Positions 29,496 to 43,429 of a DNA stretch of 64,000 nucleotides are shown here, piece after piece. The notes under the pieces were generated by a model, which did not search any database, was not told the DNA's origin, and saw nothing but the letters and a program-made list of their open reading frames with translations. The DNA is from Escherichia phage JES2013. Made by a program: the position numbers and the translations under genes. The stretch is taken from sequence record KC690136. The stretch is one strand, 5' to 3'. The stretch's first letter is position 1; the number at the start of each line of letters is the position of its first letter.

Positions 29496-30682
29496 CTGAA
29501 GAGGCAAACGTGCATAATTCCTGTGCATCGGAACGTATGAAACCTTGTTCACACTCTCATTTCCAGAGGAGATTTTATGAAGATAGAAATATTTGGTGGA
29601 GCTGACAACACTCGTGGCCTGATTTACCTTGAATTCGATGAATCATACCTACCAGAGGTGTTAAATATAGACTCTGTTGCGGAGGCTTTGGGAGTAAACC
29701 CTAAAGAACTCCACTCTTGTGCTGAGATCGATGGTTGGGAAGAGACCATGAACATTGATTTCAGTGAAGTAGAGGATGAACCGCTGGACTGACACACAAT
29801 TAGCTGCCCGGCTAAAGTGCTGGAAGCACCTATAACACATCTTTCAACTAAATTTCCCACCACAACAATCACTTACCTCCCATACATGACTGTTTGCTTG
29901 TTTAGTGAGCAGTCATGCCTTGACATTCTTGCCTATCCTGATAAAATTAAGTTCTTCTCTTTTCTTTTACCGAGTAATTCGGGTTTTCTGTTCTCTTCGG
30001 TTTGAAGGGGTATGGAGATACACCTGAGTGAACAGGGTGAACAACCGAACATTTGGCTATGGCATTAGCATGGCGAAGCGGACGGGTGACGAAAGAGGGG
30101 CCGGAGGACACCAGTCACTGCCATATGGTATATGGGTGATAACCTGAAGAGTCTGAATAAGTGTTTAAGTACCAGTCAGAGGAAAAGGTGAATGGTAGCC
30201 GAAGGGGGAGGGGGGTTTCTTGTATCTTTAATTTGTATATTATGTATACACTTGTAAACCAATCTCATTTGAATTTGTTTACCACACAAAGTGGATAGAG
30301 ACAAATATTACCTATTAAACTTGAATTATTTATAGAAAATACCACAACACTACTTAAGTCTTTGATTTTACACACAAATCCTGCAGATATTCACCCTCCA
30401 TATTTAACATACTTGTAACATATTCCATACTCTACCTGCCCGATCAATTCACCCAACTACATCCCCATATTTTCCCTGTCTGTACTACCCCTGCCCCGCC
30501 GGGAGTCCCGTCATATCTGGCTTTCCAGCAAATATCACACCCACAAATATCATTGCCTGAAGAGGGTTTCGTCCCATAATACATGCCTTACCTGAAGAGC
30601 GCTTCATATACCCCGTAAATTTTTTAATTGACCCCCTCCCCGCCGCCGGAGGGGTCGGCTTTTCCCACACAGACCTGAAGAG
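29496..30682. repeat. five dispersed copies of 9-mer CCTGAAGAG
   Basis: Exact copies at 29496, 30143, 30556, 30591, 30674. Confidence 0.5.
29577..29792 (+). CDS. small acidic protein
   Basis: GAGGAG RBS; MKIEIFGG start; last gene of the + block. Confidence 0.5.
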   Translation: MKIEIFGGADNTRGLIYLEFDESYLPEVLNIDSVAEALGVNPKELHSCAEIDGWEETMNIDFSEVEDEPLD

Positions 30683-31210
30683 TCAGCCAGAAATATCTGA
30701 ATGGACCCAATTCTGCCCTGTTATGAGCCGTAGCGACTGGAGTGCTGCCAGGCGGACGAAATGGGAATACTTCTCATTCTTATAACAATTCTCAAATATC
30801 GAGGCAGTGAGGCAAATTAATAGGTAAGGCCGTTCACATAGTGGCACAACATTTGCAGTCTATCTGATGTGGTTGAATGAGAATACCTATCATTGTGAGA
30901 ATAGTTATCATTACGGGCAATTTAACATAATACCCATTATGCGCACCACTGGCGATACATACAGGGATTGATAACATGAGTTACTGTTTACGCATATAAC
31001 AATTATATTTCTTATCATTTGTGTGGGATATAGTTAGCAGCCGATAGATTAGATATTGACCTGCGGACTTCTGACCGTCTAGACGTCTAAACGCCCACAC
31101 AACAAGGCTTATACATACATCGCTGAATGTAAACATGGCCGCAAAAATGCTACCATACAAGATTGTAAATTTTTCATGCAGCACTTGACAAAGAGGAGAA
31201 AAACTTGTCT

Positions 31211-31440
31211 GACACTTTAGACATACTGGTGACACAATATGACACTTTAGACTTAATTGACATGCCTGACTGTTTACGCTGTCACTATTCGCGCTATTAC
31301 TATTCACTCCCTTTACTGTTCACGCTCTTACTGTTTACATGCTTAATGGTTTACATGCTTAATAGACTGCATGTCTAATAGTTTACATAGCTAACTGTTC
31401 ACATACTTATCATTTACATGATTGACTGTTTACACAGAGA
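31211..31440. repeat. iteron-like array: GACACTTTAGAC x2, about 8 copies of TGTT(T/C)ACA, 16-bp tandem GTTTACATGCTTAAT
   Basis: Direct repeats read in sequence (31211-31222, 31241-31252; 31273-31435). Confidence 0.55.
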
Positions 31441-31447
31441 TGATAAG

Positions 31448-31731
31448 CCATGACATTCGTTTGCATGACAATAATTAACAAGATAACAATTGACAAGCTA
31501 ACAGCCAACAAGCTGACAATTAACTTGTTTACAATAGATGACATAATATAAAAGCAGGGCAACTATTAGAAGATCTATAGTTGCCTTGCTTGTTATGTCA
31601 TGATTAACTAAATACAAGGCAACTATGATCTGATTAATAGTTTGCAAACAAACTATCACGGGGGTGATGGTTACTGCTTTTATATTATGTCGCGACTCCG
31701 TCGCGCCATGCCATTCGTTTGCATAGTTGCC
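31448..31731. repeat. GGCAACTAT inverted/direct repeats and duplicated GCCATG(A/C)CATTCGTTTGCAT
   Basis: Palindrome GGCAACTAT-N10-ATAGTTGCC (31558-31586); further copies at 31618, 31723; 19-bp repeat at 31448-31466 and 31706-31724. Confidence 0.5.
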
Positions 31732-32340
31732 TTATTGTTACAGATAAAATAATTGTATTGTTAATTATTTCTTATCTTTCTATTAGTCATCTAATGATTC
31801 CAGTCAATATAGTAATGTACAGTAAACATTAGACGACTAAAGATTTATCTGCTTATAATAACTTACCGTGACAATTTCGGACTGTTTACGAAAAATGTTG
31901 GCACCTAAGCTGATTTATGTTATGCAGTTTACACGAATAATTATTTTATGCAGGTATTGACTATTCCATTATTCTATGGTTGGAATAAATACTTAGCAGA
32001 CTATAGAATGGTGAGCGTACGTAAATTCTGAGATCTGGCGGCTATAGTTATACTCGATTTTTCACGTAGAGCACGCTTTTGTGGTTATGTAAGTGTATGA
32101 CTTATAAAGATTTTTAGTTGTTGACAAGACACTGAAGATATGCATCAGGTTAAATTTTGTGCAATAGCTGCATTACGTGCAATTTTGGAAGGAAAAACGG
32201 GTAAAAATAGCCCTGCTACCACACAATGAAAAGTTATGCAATAGTTATTTTACATGTATATTTGTACAGTGTGTGGGGTTGATGGCTCGTCAATTATTCC
32301 ACTTGCCAGGTAGGGCCGTTTATGGTAGGGGGAAGATCAG

Positions 32341-32367
32341 ACAAAAAGAAAGGGGCCTAAGCCCCTT
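32341..32367 (-). terminator. intrinsic terminator ending the - strand block
   Basis: Minus strand: AAGGGGC-TTAG-GCCCCTT followed by TCTTTTTGT, just after stop of 32386-32805. Confidence 0.65.
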
Positions 32368-32385: not shown

Positions 32386-32805
32386 TTATAATGATTCGTA
32401 TATTTCAAAAATCCGATTTGCCAGGTCGTTACGGTACCGGAATTTTTCATCACGTTTGATCATAAGATCTTTATAGCCGTACTCTTTAAGCACTTCATTA
32501 ACTTTATGGCGGCACACCTTCATATTATCCTGAGCGTCACCAATAAACCTGTTGCTATGGTGCATGGCTTTAATTTCTTCTTCCAGGACCAGGGCAACTA
32601 TGCGGACCGGATCAAGCTGATAGGCGGTAACATCAATGCGGCATTGTAAACGGCTTTTTACGTCTGCCACCGGATATACTGCAACCTCTTCCCCGTCAAC
32701 ATTGACAATAATTAGTTTACCATCGATTTCGAATCCTTTCGCCGCCGGACCGTGACAAAAAGCGTTATCAAAGCTATATGCCGGATTATTAGATTTAATG
32801 TTCAT
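32386..32805 (-). CDS. hypothetical protein
   Basis: Track ORF; AGAGGTAAAAACACC RBS; last gene of - block. Confidence 0.5.
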   Translation of the reverse strand: MNIKSNNPAYSFDNAFCHGPAAKGFEIDGKLIIVNVDGEEVAVYPVADVKSRLQCRIDVTAYQLDPVRIVALVLEEEIKAMHHSNRFIGDAQDNMKVCRHKVNEVLKEYGYKDLMIKRDEKFRYRNDLANRIFEIYESL

Positions 32806-42413: not shown

Positions 42414-42945
42414 TTTTGTACCTCCCCTTCAATTGTTACCTATCCTATAGCATAGGCCCACCAGGTTTACAAGCCTTCATTCTCTCCTGCCTGGTCAGTT
42501 AGGTCCTGCCAGGCTGGCCCCGCCAGGTTGCAGCGGTTAGCGCATCAGGTTAGAAAAATTTTTTGAAAAGTGTTGACAGCGGCCCCGCCAGGTGGCACAA
42601 TATACCTATCGAAAGGACGGCAGGCACCGGTGACGGGGGAGGCAACCACCGGGGATGGACGCTGCATAAAATGAGAACGGTTATCATTATCATTTAAAAA
42701 TTTATGCAAAAAATCCTTGCTTTCTTTGTCCTGTGTGATACTATAATAACAAGCCGGGGCAACAGGGGCCGGGAGACAATCACCGGGCCTGCCCGTTATT
42801 CTGCAAACGAGAATGATTATCATTCAAAATTCTAAATGAGAACTCCTCGCATTTAATAAATTTAATTAGCATGCTAATTACCCTCCGTAACAATTTCCTA
42901 TAAAACAGTATCCCATAAAATATTTCCATATAGAAATTTTAAAAA

Positions 42946-43387
42946 TCCATTTCTGAAAACGAAAAATCGATTTCGTCCCCAAAAATTTCAGGTCGAGATC
43001 CGGAACGATTTCCAGAAAATCCGATTTAGAAAACGAAAAACAGATCGAGTACTGAGAAATTTATCGAGAAAAATTTTCAGAAAATTCAATCTTTGAAACG
43101 AAAAACAGATCGAGTACCTGGAAAGCTGCACTGCAACTTCAAGATAGTGGTTAGATTATTACCATAAAAGGTCAAGGGTAAGTGGAGGAAGTTCTAGTAG
43201 AAGGATGTGAGCATGTGTGGGAAATCTATAATGGTGGCCTGGAATATGGTGCAAACGATAGGATGAGTTATTCAGCTTGTCGCGCCTACTCTGAAAAATC
43301 CATTTTAGTTTTCGATCCATTTTCTGATTTTCTAAGAATTTTAAAATATCCAGCCCGGTGAAATATCAAAAGGAGGAAATCCATTTT
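42946..43387. repeat. iteron-like repeats: ATCCATTT(T/C) x4 and 23-bp direct repeat GAAA(A)CGAAAAACAGATCGAGTAC x2 plus a partial copy
   Basis: Copies at 42946, 43298, 43316, 43379; 43029-43052 and 43095-43117; partial 42955-42971. Confidence 0.55.
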
Positions 43388-43429
43388 AGAAATCCCCCTT
43401 ATACTTGATATGCCAGGAATTTTCAAGTA

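What the first reader, a model, noticed from the sequence alone, without database searches (positions are those of the whole stretch)
29800..32340. 2.5-kb ORF-free region where the two transcription blocks converge
No convincing ORF on either strand, although the rest of the window is densely coding. The - block ends with a terminator at 32341-32367. The interval is packed with repeats, consistent with a replication origin, packaging site, genome-end junction or non-coding RNA locus.
Basis: partly seen in the sequence, partly recalled or inferred. Interest (0 to 1): 0.7.

Follow-up and report, generated by a model that had tools for sequence, protein, structure and literature searches.

The report
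Genome-end junction of an rV5-like phage
The 2.5-kb gene-free stretch is where the two physical ends of this rV5-like coliphage genome meet: it holds the 459-bp terminal repeat plus flanking repeats, which is ordinary for this packaging type, and one unexplained, almost invariant promoter-driven 264-nt element.

Summary
Window 29793-32340 is truly non-coding: every ORF inside it is broken in relatives or lacks third-codon-position bias, while both flanking genes show that bias. It sits where a + and a - gene block converge, and the terminator at 32341-32367 is real.

The window is a Vequintavirus, 99.8% identical to E. coli O157 typing phage 4. The region is the "non-coding" box drawn in the 2013 rV5 paper.

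Its core, 30751-31209, is the 459-bp direct terminal repeat (DTR). Deposited relatives start at 30751 or end at 31209. HdK5 and Gotham carry the same 459 bp at both ends. The DTR mapped from reads in Klebsiella phage KPP-1 has homologous boundaries.

Features around the DTR:
- A conserved C-rich left flank with CCTGAAGAG repeats.
- Hypervariable 15-16-bp tandem arrays that begin exactly at the right DTR boundary.
- A 152-nt palindrome (fold z = -9.6), with architectural counterparts in two other genera.

The same layout recurs in Mydovirus and Seunavirus.

One part is unexplained. A strong sigma-70 promoter (29920-29947) drives a 264-nt element (29954-30217) that is 95% invariant, more conserved than any neighbouring gene, and has no ORF, Rfam or outside homolog.

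Verdict: a known kind of feature, a T7-type concatemer junction. Roles as a replication origin or ncRNA locus remain untested.

The parts
29577..29792 (+). Last gene (71 aa) of the + strand block; marks the left limit of the non-coding zone
   Evidence: Annotated in all annotated relatives. Intact in 17/18, with variable columns by codon position [8,6,31].
29887..29916 (.). 30-nt invariant block just upstream of the promoter. It contains TGACTGTTTGCTTGTTTA, a motif resembling the repeat units right of the DTR.
   Evidence: Invariant in 18 genomes. Resembles the unit at 31328-31345 (family D5).
29920..29947 (+). Strong sigma-70-type promoter: TTGACA, 16-nt spacer, TG-extended TAAAAT
   Evidence: 11/12 consensus match with TG. 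The -35, TG and -10 are kept in the most divergent relative, while the spacer sequence changes and lengthens by 2 nt.
29954..30217 (+). Element B: an ultra-conserved 264-nt non-coding unit downstream of the promoter. It has a pyrimidine-rich 5' part and a purine-rich body, and ends in GGGGGAGGGGGG. Function unknown; it may be an ncRNA or a primer transcript.
   Evidence: 94.7% invariant columns, against 72-76% in the flanking genes. It is 97-98.5% identical in relatives whose flanking gene is 83-86% identical. The ten most conserved 260-nt windows over 12.3 kb all lie here. No codon bias, no Rfam hit, no homolog elsewhere. RNA fold z is only -1.5.
30218..30320 (.). AT-rich, poorly conserved spacer with GTTTAC cores in both orientations; conservation collapses right after the G-run
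   Evidence: 29% invariant columns. Replaced or deleted in LL12, MiataMamis and L032.
30321..30750 (+). Conserved C-rich left flank of the DTR, which is the unique right end of the virion DNA. It holds CCTGAAGAG at 30556, 30591 and 30674, a GC hairpin at 30487-30510, a terminator-like hairpin at 30631-30665, and an indel hotspot at 30700-30749.
   Evidence: Colinear islands are shared with PVP-SE1 (30487-30505, 30691-30707) and KPP-1 (30672-30688).
30751..31209 (.). 459-bp direct terminal repeat (DTR). In this assembly the two physical end copies are collapsed into one.
   Evidence: HdK5, bov11CS3, bov25_3 and ECP2309 records start at 30751. EdH4, ECP2303, Gotham and Pr121LW records end at 31209. 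In HdK5 the first 459 bp equal the last 459 bp at 100%. Gotham annotates repeat_region 1-459 and 136567-137025. Korf 2019 reports 458-bp terminal redundancies. The boundaries are homologous to the PhageTerm DTR of KPP-1.
30878..30912 (.). Two tandem 18-bp units, TGAGAATAnnTATCATTG, inside the DTR. They are Fur-box-like palindromic sites with related copies in KPP-1 and PVP-SE1.
   Evidence: TRF score 56. The 7-1-7 motif is enriched, 10 strand-hits against 1.4 expected. Cross-genus matches. Any role is speculative.
31210..31539 (+). Hypervariable tandem arrays that start exactly at the right DTR boundary: TGACACTTTAGAC units, then about 11 units of 15-16 bp (consensus near CTTAACTGTTTACATG), then 3.5 units of AATTRACAAGMTRAC
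   Evidence: Only 4% invariant columns, with large copy-number indels among relatives. A related single site, TGACAGTTTACAC, lies right of the KPP-1 DTR.
31447..31466 (+). Left copy of a 20-nt direct repeat, GCCATGNCATTCGTTTGCAT. The partner is at 31705-31724. Together they bracket the second array and the palindrome, and they are the endpoints of the FV3 deletion.
   Evidence: Family D13. FV3 lacks the interval between the two copies.
31540..31691 (.). 152-nt interrupted palindrome: 18-nt perfect outer arms, inner AAGGCAACTAT arms, and a side hairpin
   Evidence: DNA fold -46.8 kcal/mol, z = -9.6; RNA z = -7.8 and -9.5. A 33-nt insertion is tolerated in the apical loop in rV5, LL12 and phita32. 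Analogous large inverted repeats lie about 310-400 bp right of the DTR in KPP-1 and PVP-SE1, kept perfect by 2 compensatory double changes.
31761..32340 (.). Conserved AT-rich non-coding spacer between the palindrome and the end of the - block; function unknown
   Evidence: GC 0.35-0.39. 68% invariant columns, similar to coding DNA. No intact ORF.
32341..32367 (-). Rho-independent terminator that closes the - strand gene block
   Evidence: 7-bp GC-rich stem plus T-run. Annotated as a terminator in Murica, HdK5 and Gotham. A terminator at the analogous edge of the gap is annotated in PVP-SE1.
32386..32805 (-). Last gene (139 aa) of the - block; an accessory gene, absent from 7 of 18 relatives
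   Evidence: Intact in 11/11 where present, with variable columns by codon position [9,10,59]; absences.

Best explanation
The interval is the terminal, or concatemer-junction, region of a Vequintavirus (rV5-like myovirus) genome.

Layout. Virion DNA is linear and carries the same 459 bp (window 30751-31209) at both ends. The deposited sequence is the collapsed circular form. In it, the unique right-end DNA (29793-30750) and the unique left-end DNA (31210-32340) flank a single copy of the repeat. Genes on both sides are transcribed outward towards the ends and stop short of them, which leaves about 2.5 kb without genes.

How it works, by analogy with T7-type phages. Replication yields head-to-tail concatemers joined through one repeat copy. 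Terminase then cuts at two fixed sites: gtgctgcca|GGCGGACG on the left and ...AAAACTTGTC|tgacac on the right. The repeat is duplicated so that each packaged genome has a copy at each end.

Likely roles of the flanks. The non-coding flanks probably carry the cis-acting signals for this. These are the conserved C-rich segment with CCTGAAGAG repeats to the left, and the tandem TGTTTACA-type arrays plus the 152-nt palindrome to the right. The palindrome could form a hairpin or cruciform, as proposed for repeat duplication in T7.

Extra unit. A Vequintavirus-specific unit, a sigma-70 promoter plus the 264-nt element B, lies about 530 bp left of the repeat. It is probably transcribed towards the right genome end.

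Shown: the position and boundaries of the repeat (by identity with the ends of deposited relatives), absence of genes, the conservation pattern, the repeats and the palindrome.
Inferred: the packaging mechanism, the roles of the flanking repeats and palindrome, and any function of element B.
For: Identity of the phage and region: 99.8% to E. coli O157 typing phage 4, and 120 Vequintavirus records share the region. It is the 'non-coding' box of the rV5 paper; rV5 has no ORFs at 104013-106618.

Termini:
- At least 8 records from several laboratories start at 30751 or end at 31209.
- The two ends of HdK5 are identical over 459 bp and map to exactly 30751-31209.
- Gotham annotates both 459-bp repeats.
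- Korf et al. report 458-bp terminal redundancies for EdH4 and HdK5 (PMC6563267).
- The 514-bp DTR of KPP-1 (Mydovirus), found from doubled coverage and PhageTerm (PMC9862379), lies in the same kind of convergent gap. Its boundaries align with those of the window to within 2 nt at the right boundary, and at the conserved GNCGGAC motif (G(G/A)CGGAC) at the left.
- PVP-SE1 (Seunavirus) has a 2.24-kb gap with colinear conserved islands.

Conservation: it changes abruptly at the right DTR boundary, from 0.97 to 0.69 or lower. The gap as a whole is at least as conserved as the neighbouring small genes.

Non-coding status.

Precedent: T7-like genomes also have long gene-free DNA around their DTRs; in AP5 the repeat is 1-235 and the first gene starts at 1017. 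A hairpin intermediate has been reported for T7 repeat duplication (PMC4281155 citing Chung and Hinkle 1990).
Against: - No sequencing reads or virion-end data exist for this phage itself. The termini are transferred from relatives that are 92-95% identical.
- Most GenBank records of the genus are arbitrarily permuted, and the rV5 paper did not determine ends.
- One paper infers headful packaging with partial permutation for a Vequintavirus assembled from a phage cocktail (PMC13211470).
- FV3 lacks the palindrome and the second array. Either these are dispensable or that record has a palindrome-related sequencing deletion.
- Nothing here shows that terminase binds the flanking repeats.
- Element B lies about 530 bp from the nearest cut site and is absent from the KPP-1 and PVP-SE1 gaps. 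It is therefore not a general part of the terminus machinery.
Confidence: 0.85

Rival explanations
1. A replication origin sits in the gap, possibly alongside the termini. There are two versions. (a) An iteron origin, in which the 15-16-bp TGTTTACA arrays bind an initiator. (b) A transcription-primed (R-loop) origin, in which host RNA polymerase starts at the 29920 promoter, transcribes element B, and the G5AG6 run anchors an RNA-DNA hybrid at the adjacent AT-rich DNA. Version (b) resembles ColE1 RNA II, T4 oriF/oriG and mitochondrial CSB II; that comparison comes from my own knowledge.
For: - Tandem arrays and AT-rich DNA are present.
- The promoter is conserved and is followed by an ultra-conserved transcribed segment whose conservation ends exactly at a G5AG6 run and then AT-rich DNA.
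- GTTTAC cores are scattered from 29889 to 31933.
- Cumulative GC skew peaks here.
- The rV5 authors noted skew changes at the matching rV5 coordinates, 104425-105475.
Against: - The skew change coincides with the switch in transcription direction, as the rV5 authors say.
- No DnaA box with one mismatch or fewer in the region.
- No initiator or replication gene is adjacent.
- The array period is 15-16 bp, and copy number varies about threefold among viable relatives.
- Element B and the G-run are absent from the KPP-1 and PVP-SE1 gaps.
- The AT-rich segment after B is poorly conserved.
- There are no replication data.
Confidence: 0.25
2. The functional core is a non-coding RNA locus. Element B would be a stable RNA of about 264 nt, acting as a regulator, decoy or RNP component, made from its own promoter. 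The rest of the gap would be incidental.
For: - Strong extended -10 promoter whose hexamers are kept while the spacer diverges.
- 94.7% invariant columns with no codon-position pattern.
- It is the most conserved segment within 12 kb.
- The predicted fold pairs the 5' end with the 3' G-rich end.
Against: - The MFE z-score is only -1.5 (15 of 200 shuffles fold as well), and the minus strand gives -0.4.
- There are too few substitutions to test covariation; variable sites are only mildly enriched in unpaired positions.
- No canonical intrinsic terminator at the 3' end.
- No Rfam match.
- No transcript data were found in the literature.
- It does not explain the DTR, the arrays or the palindrome.
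Confidence: 0.4
3. The region encodes unannotated small proteins, as some automated annotations imply (7-14 'hypothetical proteins' in JLBYU08, MiataMamis and PMBT16).
For: Mechanical ORFs of 30-108 aa exist on both strands. Several GenBank records annotate them.
Against: The ORFs are interrupted in many or most relatives, or show flat substitution across codon positions. The annotated sets differ between records. Seven tested ORFs have no Pfam or PHROG hit. Curated records (rV5, FV3, LL12, HdK5) annotate none.
Confidence: 0.03
4. The phage packages by a headful (pac) mechanism with permuted ends, so the region is only a pac site or an assembly breakpoint and not a fixed-end junction.
For: PhageTerm-based claim for the Vequintavirus BpE1AUH (PMC13211470). 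Many records are arbitrarily permuted.
Against: Independent records share identical start and end coordinates, and two carry the explicit 459-bp repeat at both ends. Korf 2019 reports terminal redundancies. The KPP-1 boundaries are homologous. The BpE1AUH genome came from a mixed cocktail assembly.
Confidence: 0.07

Closest known systems
Direct terminal repeats of other Vequintavirinae: HdK5 and EdH4 (458-459 bp), Gotham (459 bp), Klebsiella phage KPP-1 (514 bp)
   Same: The same sequence at 93-95% identity within the genus, with identical boundaries. The KPP-1 boundaries are homologous (GNCGGAC, that is G(G/A)CGGAC, at the left end and CTTGACA...TTGT at the right). The setting is also the same: a 1.8-2.5-kb gene-free gap where the + and - small-gene blocks converge.
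   Different: Nothing essential for the DTR. The KPP-1 and PVP-SE1 gaps lack element B and have single sites rather than long TGTTTACA arrays.
T7-type concatemer junction (T7, T3, phiYeO3-12 and AP5 short exact DTRs)
   Same: Short exact DTRs of a few hundred bp. Long non-coding DNA around the repeat; in AP5 the repeat is 1-235 and the first gene starts at 1017. The repeat must be duplicated during concatemer processing, and a hairpin intermediate has been reported. The window likewise has a strong palindrome near the repeat.
   Different: This is a myovirus with a genome of about 140 kb and no phage RNA polymerase. Flanking genes are transcribed towards the ends rather than inward from the left end. 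There is no sequence similarity. Cleavage chemistry and packaging direction are unknown. The palindrome is on the left-end side, about 330 bp from the repeat.
T5 terminal-repeat non-coding 'injection stop signal' region (from my own knowledge, not checked here)
   Same: A kilobase-scale gene-free segment near a genome end, dense in direct repeats, inverted repeats and palindromes, and conserved among relatives without a proven mechanism.
   Different: The T5 repeats are about 10 kb and contain genes. The T5 region carries DnaA boxes, which are absent here. Two-step DNA injection is not known for rV5-like phages.
Transcription-primed origins: ColE1 RNA II, T4 oriF/oriG, T7 primary origin, mitochondrial LSP/CSB II (from my own knowledge)
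   Same: A promoter followed by a transcribed segment and then AT-rich DNA. A G-rich run (G5AG6-TTT) at the 3' limit of conservation resembles the G-runs that stabilise RNA-DNA hybrids.
   Different: No evidence of priming or an R-loop. There is no sequence homology. The AT-rich segment is poorly conserved, and the element is confined to one genus.
Iteron-type origins and pac sites (lambda ori, P1 oriR and pac, SPP1 pacL/pacR) (from my own knowledge)
   Same: Tandem short repeats that could bind a sequence-specific protein oligomer.
   Different: The 15-16-bp period is not in helical phase. Copy number varies widely among relatives. There is no adjacent initiator or terminase gene.

Membership tests
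Exact direct-terminal-repeat (T7-type) genome ends | The same sequence is present at both physical ends of the virion DNA | tested here: met
   Indirect, through close relatives. In HdK5 the first 459 bp equal the last 459 bp at 100% and map to window 30751-31209. Gotham annotates both copies. Korf 2019 reports terminal redundancies.
Exact direct-terminal-repeat (T7-type) genome ends | Fixed, non-permuted boundaries shared by independent isolates | tested here: met
   Four records start at 30751 and four end at 31209. The KPP-1 PhageTerm boundaries are homologous, within 2 nt at the right boundary.
Exact direct-terminal-repeat (T7-type) genome ends | Twofold read coverage over the repeat and sharp read starts at both boundaries in this phage | not testable with these tools
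   No reads are available. This was reported for KPP-1 only (PMC9862379). A conflicting headful call exists for BpE1AUH.
Exact direct-terminal-repeat (T7-type) genome ends | The large terminase groups with those of DTR-type phages | not tested
   The terminase gene lies outside this window.
Iteron-type replication origin | Array of direct repeats next to an AT-rich unwinding element | tested here: inconclusive
   Arrays at 31262-31524 and AT-rich DNA are present. However, the period is 15-16 bp and copy number is highly variable.
Iteron-type replication origin | Adjacent or overlapping initiator gene, and host DnaA boxes | tested here: not met
   The flanking genes are small hypothetical proteins. 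There are 0 DnaA boxes with one mismatch or fewer, against 1.4 expected.
Transcription-primed (R-loop) origin | Promoter directing transcription into an unwinding element | tested here: inconclusive
   The promoter at 29920-29947 is conserved. A G-run followed by AT-rich DNA lies at 30205-30320, but that segment is poorly conserved.
Transcription-primed (R-loop) origin | Persistent RNA-DNA hybrid used as a primer; initiation mapped to the site | not testable with these tools
   This needs experiments.
Described RNA family (Rfam 15) or tRNA/tmRNA | Covariance-model match at or near the gathering score | tested here: not met
   No hit at gathering score in the whole window. The only hit at E<=1 in the region is a chance mir-4 match, 21.9 bits against a gathering score of 70. 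No tRNA or tmRNA.
Rho-independent terminator (32341-32367, - strand) | GC-rich hairpin followed by a T-run, downstream of the last gene | tested here: met
   7-bp stem with 5 GC pairs, 4-nt loop, tail TCTTTTTGTC. Annotated in relatives.
Protein-coding genes | ORF kept intact in relatives, with third-codon-position excess of substitutions | tested here: not met
   No Pfam or PHROG match.

The most novel reading that the evidence does not exclude
Element B (29954-30217) with its conserved sigma-70 promoter is a previously undescribed functional RNA of Vequintavirus phages. It would be either a stable regulatory or decoy RNA, or the primer transcript of an R-loop replication origin placed next to the genome end. 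It is held almost invariant across the genus: 95% invariant columns, more conserved than any gene within 12 kb.
Probability: 0.4. Interest if true: 0.55.

Novelty: already known. Interest (0 to 1): 0.3.

Why it matters
For annotation, the window and most of the 120 related GenBank records are arbitrary permutations of a genome with fixed ends. Placing the 459-bp repeat at 30751-31209 gives the true start, end and length, which is one repeat longer than the collapsed assembly. It also explains the long-noted 'non-coding' box of rV5.

For biology, the same layout occurs in three genera of Vequintavirinae: a convergent gene-free gap, the DTR, variable repeats and a large palindrome. This marks out a compact set of candidate cis elements for packaging and end duplication in a group of therapeutic and typing coliphages.

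The only surprising item is element B. A promoter-driven 264-nt sequence under stronger constraint than any nearby gene, with no known family, is a cheap and well-defined target for a Northern blot and a deletion experiment.

Tried and rejected
- Rfam at gathering score on the whole window and at E<=1 on the region: nothing real. ARAGORN found no tRNA or tmRNA.
- Small ORFs: rejected by the comparative test and by Pfam and PHROGs. Two micro-ORFs inside B were read by eye. The ATG at 30010 is lost in bov11CS3 and L030, and neither has a plausible ribosome-binding site.
- CCTGAAGAG as a hammerhead-like CUGANGA core: no GAAA partner after stem II and no Rfam hammerhead hit. The five copies outside the finding interval appear to be coding Pro-Glu-Glu (inferred from sequence context, frames not checked), so only the four-copy cluster in the gap is meaningful.
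- DnaA boxes: none. The Fur-box-like motif is enriched, but in AT-rich palindromic DNA, so I kept it only as a side note.
- Homologs of B:
  - blastn 'distant' against phages found only Vequintavirus.
  - E. coli genomes gave no match.
  - 20-mer scans of viral and metagenome contigs found only Vequintavirus contigs plus two chance hits in GC-rich bacterial DNA, L028 and L029.
  - nhmmer profiles against the KPP-1 locus found nothing for B.
- RNA structure of B: z = -1.5. There are too few substitutions for covariation, and the pairing probability of variable sites is not decisive.
- The search for related loci with the 71-aa flanking protein gave only 3 loci.
- The predicted - strand promoter at 31191-31162: by eye on the alignment its -10 region appears to vary among relatives, so I did not use it.
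- The raw ORF-length statistic is not discriminating, because neighbouring genes are small.
- Literature searches for a Vequintavirus transcriptome or ncRNA found nothing relevant.
Full report
**1. What the window is.** The interval 29800-32340 is 99.8% identical to E. coli O157 typing phage 4 (KP869102.1). It matches 120 phage records, all of genus Vequintavirus (rV5-like myoviruses), at 88-96% identity. In rV5 it corresponds to 104021-106560. [quoted passage not shown] Its authors expected, but did not find, bidirectional terminators there (PMC3606486). The bare observation has therefore been in the literature since 2013, without a stated function.

**2. Check of the observation.** Mechanical ORFs up to 108 aa exist. 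Because the neighbouring genes are themselves only 60-140 aa, ORF length alone is not convincing. I therefore aligned the window with 17 relatives.

- The two flanking genes are intact wherever they are present, apart from one frameshifted copy of the + gene (17/18 and 11/11), and show the coding signature. Variable columns by codon position are [8,6,31] for 29577-29792(+) and [9,10,59] for 32386-32805(-).
- Most ORFs of 39 aa or more inside the gap are interrupted in many or most relatives. The few that stay intact lie in the near-invariant element B or show flat variation across codon positions.
- Seven of these ORFs have no Pfam or PHROG match.
- The - strand terminator at 32341-32367 is real.
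- The gene blocks converge here, and GC skew flips sign.
- The four best tandem arrays of the whole window lie at 30878-31524.
- A 152-nt palindrome at 31540-31691 folds with z = -9.6.

The true left edge is 29793.

**3. The core is the direct terminal repeat (DTR).** Listing where deposited genomes begin and end gave the key result.

- HdK5, bov11CS3, bov25_3 and ECP2309 begin at the base that aligns with window 30751.
- EdH4, ECP2303, Gotham and Pr121LW end at the base that aligns with 31209.
- In HdK5 the first and last 459 bp of the record are 100% identical and map to exactly 30751-31209.
- Gotham annotates repeat_region 1-459 and 136567-137025.

The window is thus the collapsed, concatemer-junction form. 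The unique right-end DNA (29793-30750) and the unique left-end DNA (31210-32340) flank one copy of the repeat.

**4. The layout is conserved across the subfamily.**

- In Klebsiella phage KPP-1 (Mydovirus), a 514-bp DTR was found from doubled coverage and PhageTerm (PMC9862379). It lies in a gap of about 1.8 kb where + and - blocks of small genes converge.
- Salmonella phage PVP-SE1 (Seunavirus) has a 2.24-kb gene-free gap at the same kind of convergence, with an annotated - strand terminator at its right edge.
- The KPP-1 and PVP-SE1 gaps are 73-80% identical to each other.
- The window shares short colinear islands with them: 30487-30505, 30691-30707, 30920-30949 (90%) and 31163-31202.
- The boundaries are homologous.
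  - Left: window gtgctgcca|GGCGGACG, KPP-1 gtgcta|GACGGACA.
  - Right: window CTTGACAAAGAGGAGAAAAACTTGTC|, KPP-1 CTTGACAAGGAGAGAGAATTGTGTT|.

Termini mapped from reads in another genus therefore fall on the positions I inferred from record ends in this one.

**5. Anatomy of the flanks.** Conservation comes from the 18-genome alignment.

(a) 29793-29919 is a variable spacer.

(b) 29887-29916 is an invariant 30-mer, followed by a strong promoter at 29920-29947 (TTGACA, 16-nt spacer, TG-extended TAAAAT; 11/12 match).

(c) Element B, 29954-30217.
- 94.7% of its columns are invariant, against 72-76% for the flanking genes.
- In the two most divergent relatives the flanking gene is 83-86% identical and the spacer 60-75%, yet B is 97-98.5% identical.
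- The promoter hexamers survive a spacer that has changed in sequence and length.
- Over 12.3 kb compared with the most divergent relative, the ten most conserved 260-nt windows all lie in B: 0.985, against a median of 0.862.
- Conservation stops right after GGGGGAGGGGGG.

(d) 30218-30320 is AT-rich and poorly conserved.

(e) 30321-30750 is a conserved C-rich segment. It carries three CCTGAAGAG copies (a fourth lies in B), two GC-rich hairpins, and an indel hotspot just before the repeat.

(f) 30751-31209 is the DTR. Both of its ends are strongly conserved, as is an internal block at 30878-30975.

(g) 31210-31539 holds tandem arrays that begin exactly at the right boundary. Conservation falls from 0.97 to 0.69 or lower, only 4% of columns are invariant, and copy number differs about threefold among relatives.

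(h) 31540-31691 is the palindrome. It has 18-nt perfect outer arms, and in three relatives its apical loop tolerates a 33-nt insertion. FV3 lacks the whole segment between two 20-nt direct repeats at 31447 and 31705.

(i) 31761-32340 is conserved AT-rich DNA that runs up to the terminator.

KPP-1 and PVP-SE1 have an analogous large inverted repeat about 310-400 bp right of their DTRs. The two differences between their 18-nt arms are both compensated in the partner arm. The inverted-repeat character itself is therefore under selection.

**6. Most likely mechanism.** The best-supported reading is a T7-type terminal region.

- Concatemers are joined through one repeat copy.
- Terminase cuts at two fixed sites.
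- The repeat is duplicated so that each virion DNA carries it twice.

T7-like genomes likewise keep about 1 kb of gene-free DNA around their repeats (AP5), and a hairpin intermediate has been linked to repeat duplication in T7. By position and conservation, I assign the C-rich CCTGAAGAG segment, the arrays and the palindrome to cis-acting roles in recognition, cutting and duplication. This step is inference: no binding or packaging data exist, and the FV3 deletion argues that the palindrome may be dispensable. Confidence that the DTR and physical ends lie here is about 0.85. Confidence in any specific role for a flank element is much lower.

**7. Rival readings.**

- Iteron origin. It fails two features: there are no DnaA boxes and no adjacent initiator gene. 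The arrays are also too variable.
- Transcription-primed origin. The idea is promoter, then B, then the G-run, then AT-rich DNA, and it rests on resemblance only. B is absent from the other genera.
- Stand-alone ncRNA. This fits the promoter and the extreme conservation. However, the fold is not exceptional (z = -1.5), covariation cannot be measured, and there is no Rfam family and no published transcript.
- Small proteins. Rejected.
- Headful packaging. Claimed for one cocktail-derived genome. It conflicts with the shared fixed ends.

**8. Novelty and verdict.** The gene-free box and the 458-459-bp repeat are both already on record, so the finding as stated is already known. It is ordinary for phages with short exact terminal repeats. 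This analysis adds four things:

- the explicit link between the gene-free box and the repeat;
- the exact coordinates in this window;
- conservation of the layout and boundary motifs across genera;
- element B, which I could not find described in the literature I searched and which remains unexplained.

Overall interest is 0.3. The open case, that B is a new functional RNA or primer transcript, has a probability of about 0.4 and would merit about 0.55.

Noticed in passing
window 42824-43429: A second gene-free gap of 606 bp inside the - strand block. It has no ORF of 60 aa or more and no sigma-70-like promoter. There is one long AT-rich hairpin with a T-run at 42986-42949(-).
   Followed up: partly
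window 32386-32805 (-): The 139-aa gene next to the left genome end is missing from 7 of 18 relatives (FV3, slur12, A141, HMD-6, HdK5, Gotham and one IMG/VR contig). It is therefore an accessory gene at the terminus.
   Followed up: partly
GenBank MG0656xx records (e.g. L018, L020): Nineteen 'Campylobacter phage' records, marked UNVERIFIED, are Vequintavirus genomes more than 90% identical to this coliphage over the region. The host label is probably wrong, or the isolates were contaminated.
   Followed up: no
L017 (phage I29, ON286975.1), aligned to window 30690-30760: A 596-bp rearranged duplication lies just left of the DTR: a copy of 30690-30967, then inverted 30484-30426, then 30426-30760. 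It could be a snap-back assembly artefact or a real rearrangement at the terminus.
   Followed up: partly
window 30878-30912; L024 4740-4964; L034 18311-18334: Fur-box-like 7-1-7 palindromes. In the window DTR they read TGAGAATAnnTATCA, twice. In the right flanks of KPP-1 and PVP-SE1 they are near-perfect AAATGATAAnnnTTATCATTT sites. They may be operators for a host or phage dimeric regulator.
   Followed up: partly
L015 (phage FV3, JQ031132.1), aligned to window 31447-31724: FV3 lacks about 258 bp between two 20-nt direct repeats, which removes the second array and the whole palindrome. This is either a natural deletion showing the palindrome is dispensable, or loss of a palindrome during cloning or sequencing.
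   Followed up: no
whole window compared with 29800-32340: GATC is frequent in the window (359 sites against about 250 expected) but sparse in the gap (5 sites against about 14 expected from the window average).
   Followed up: no
L024 4639-4844 and L034 18137-18355: The large inverted repeat right of the DTR in KPP-1 and PVP-SE1 differs at two positions per arm. Both differences are compensated in the partner arm, so the complementarity stays perfect.
   Followed up: partly
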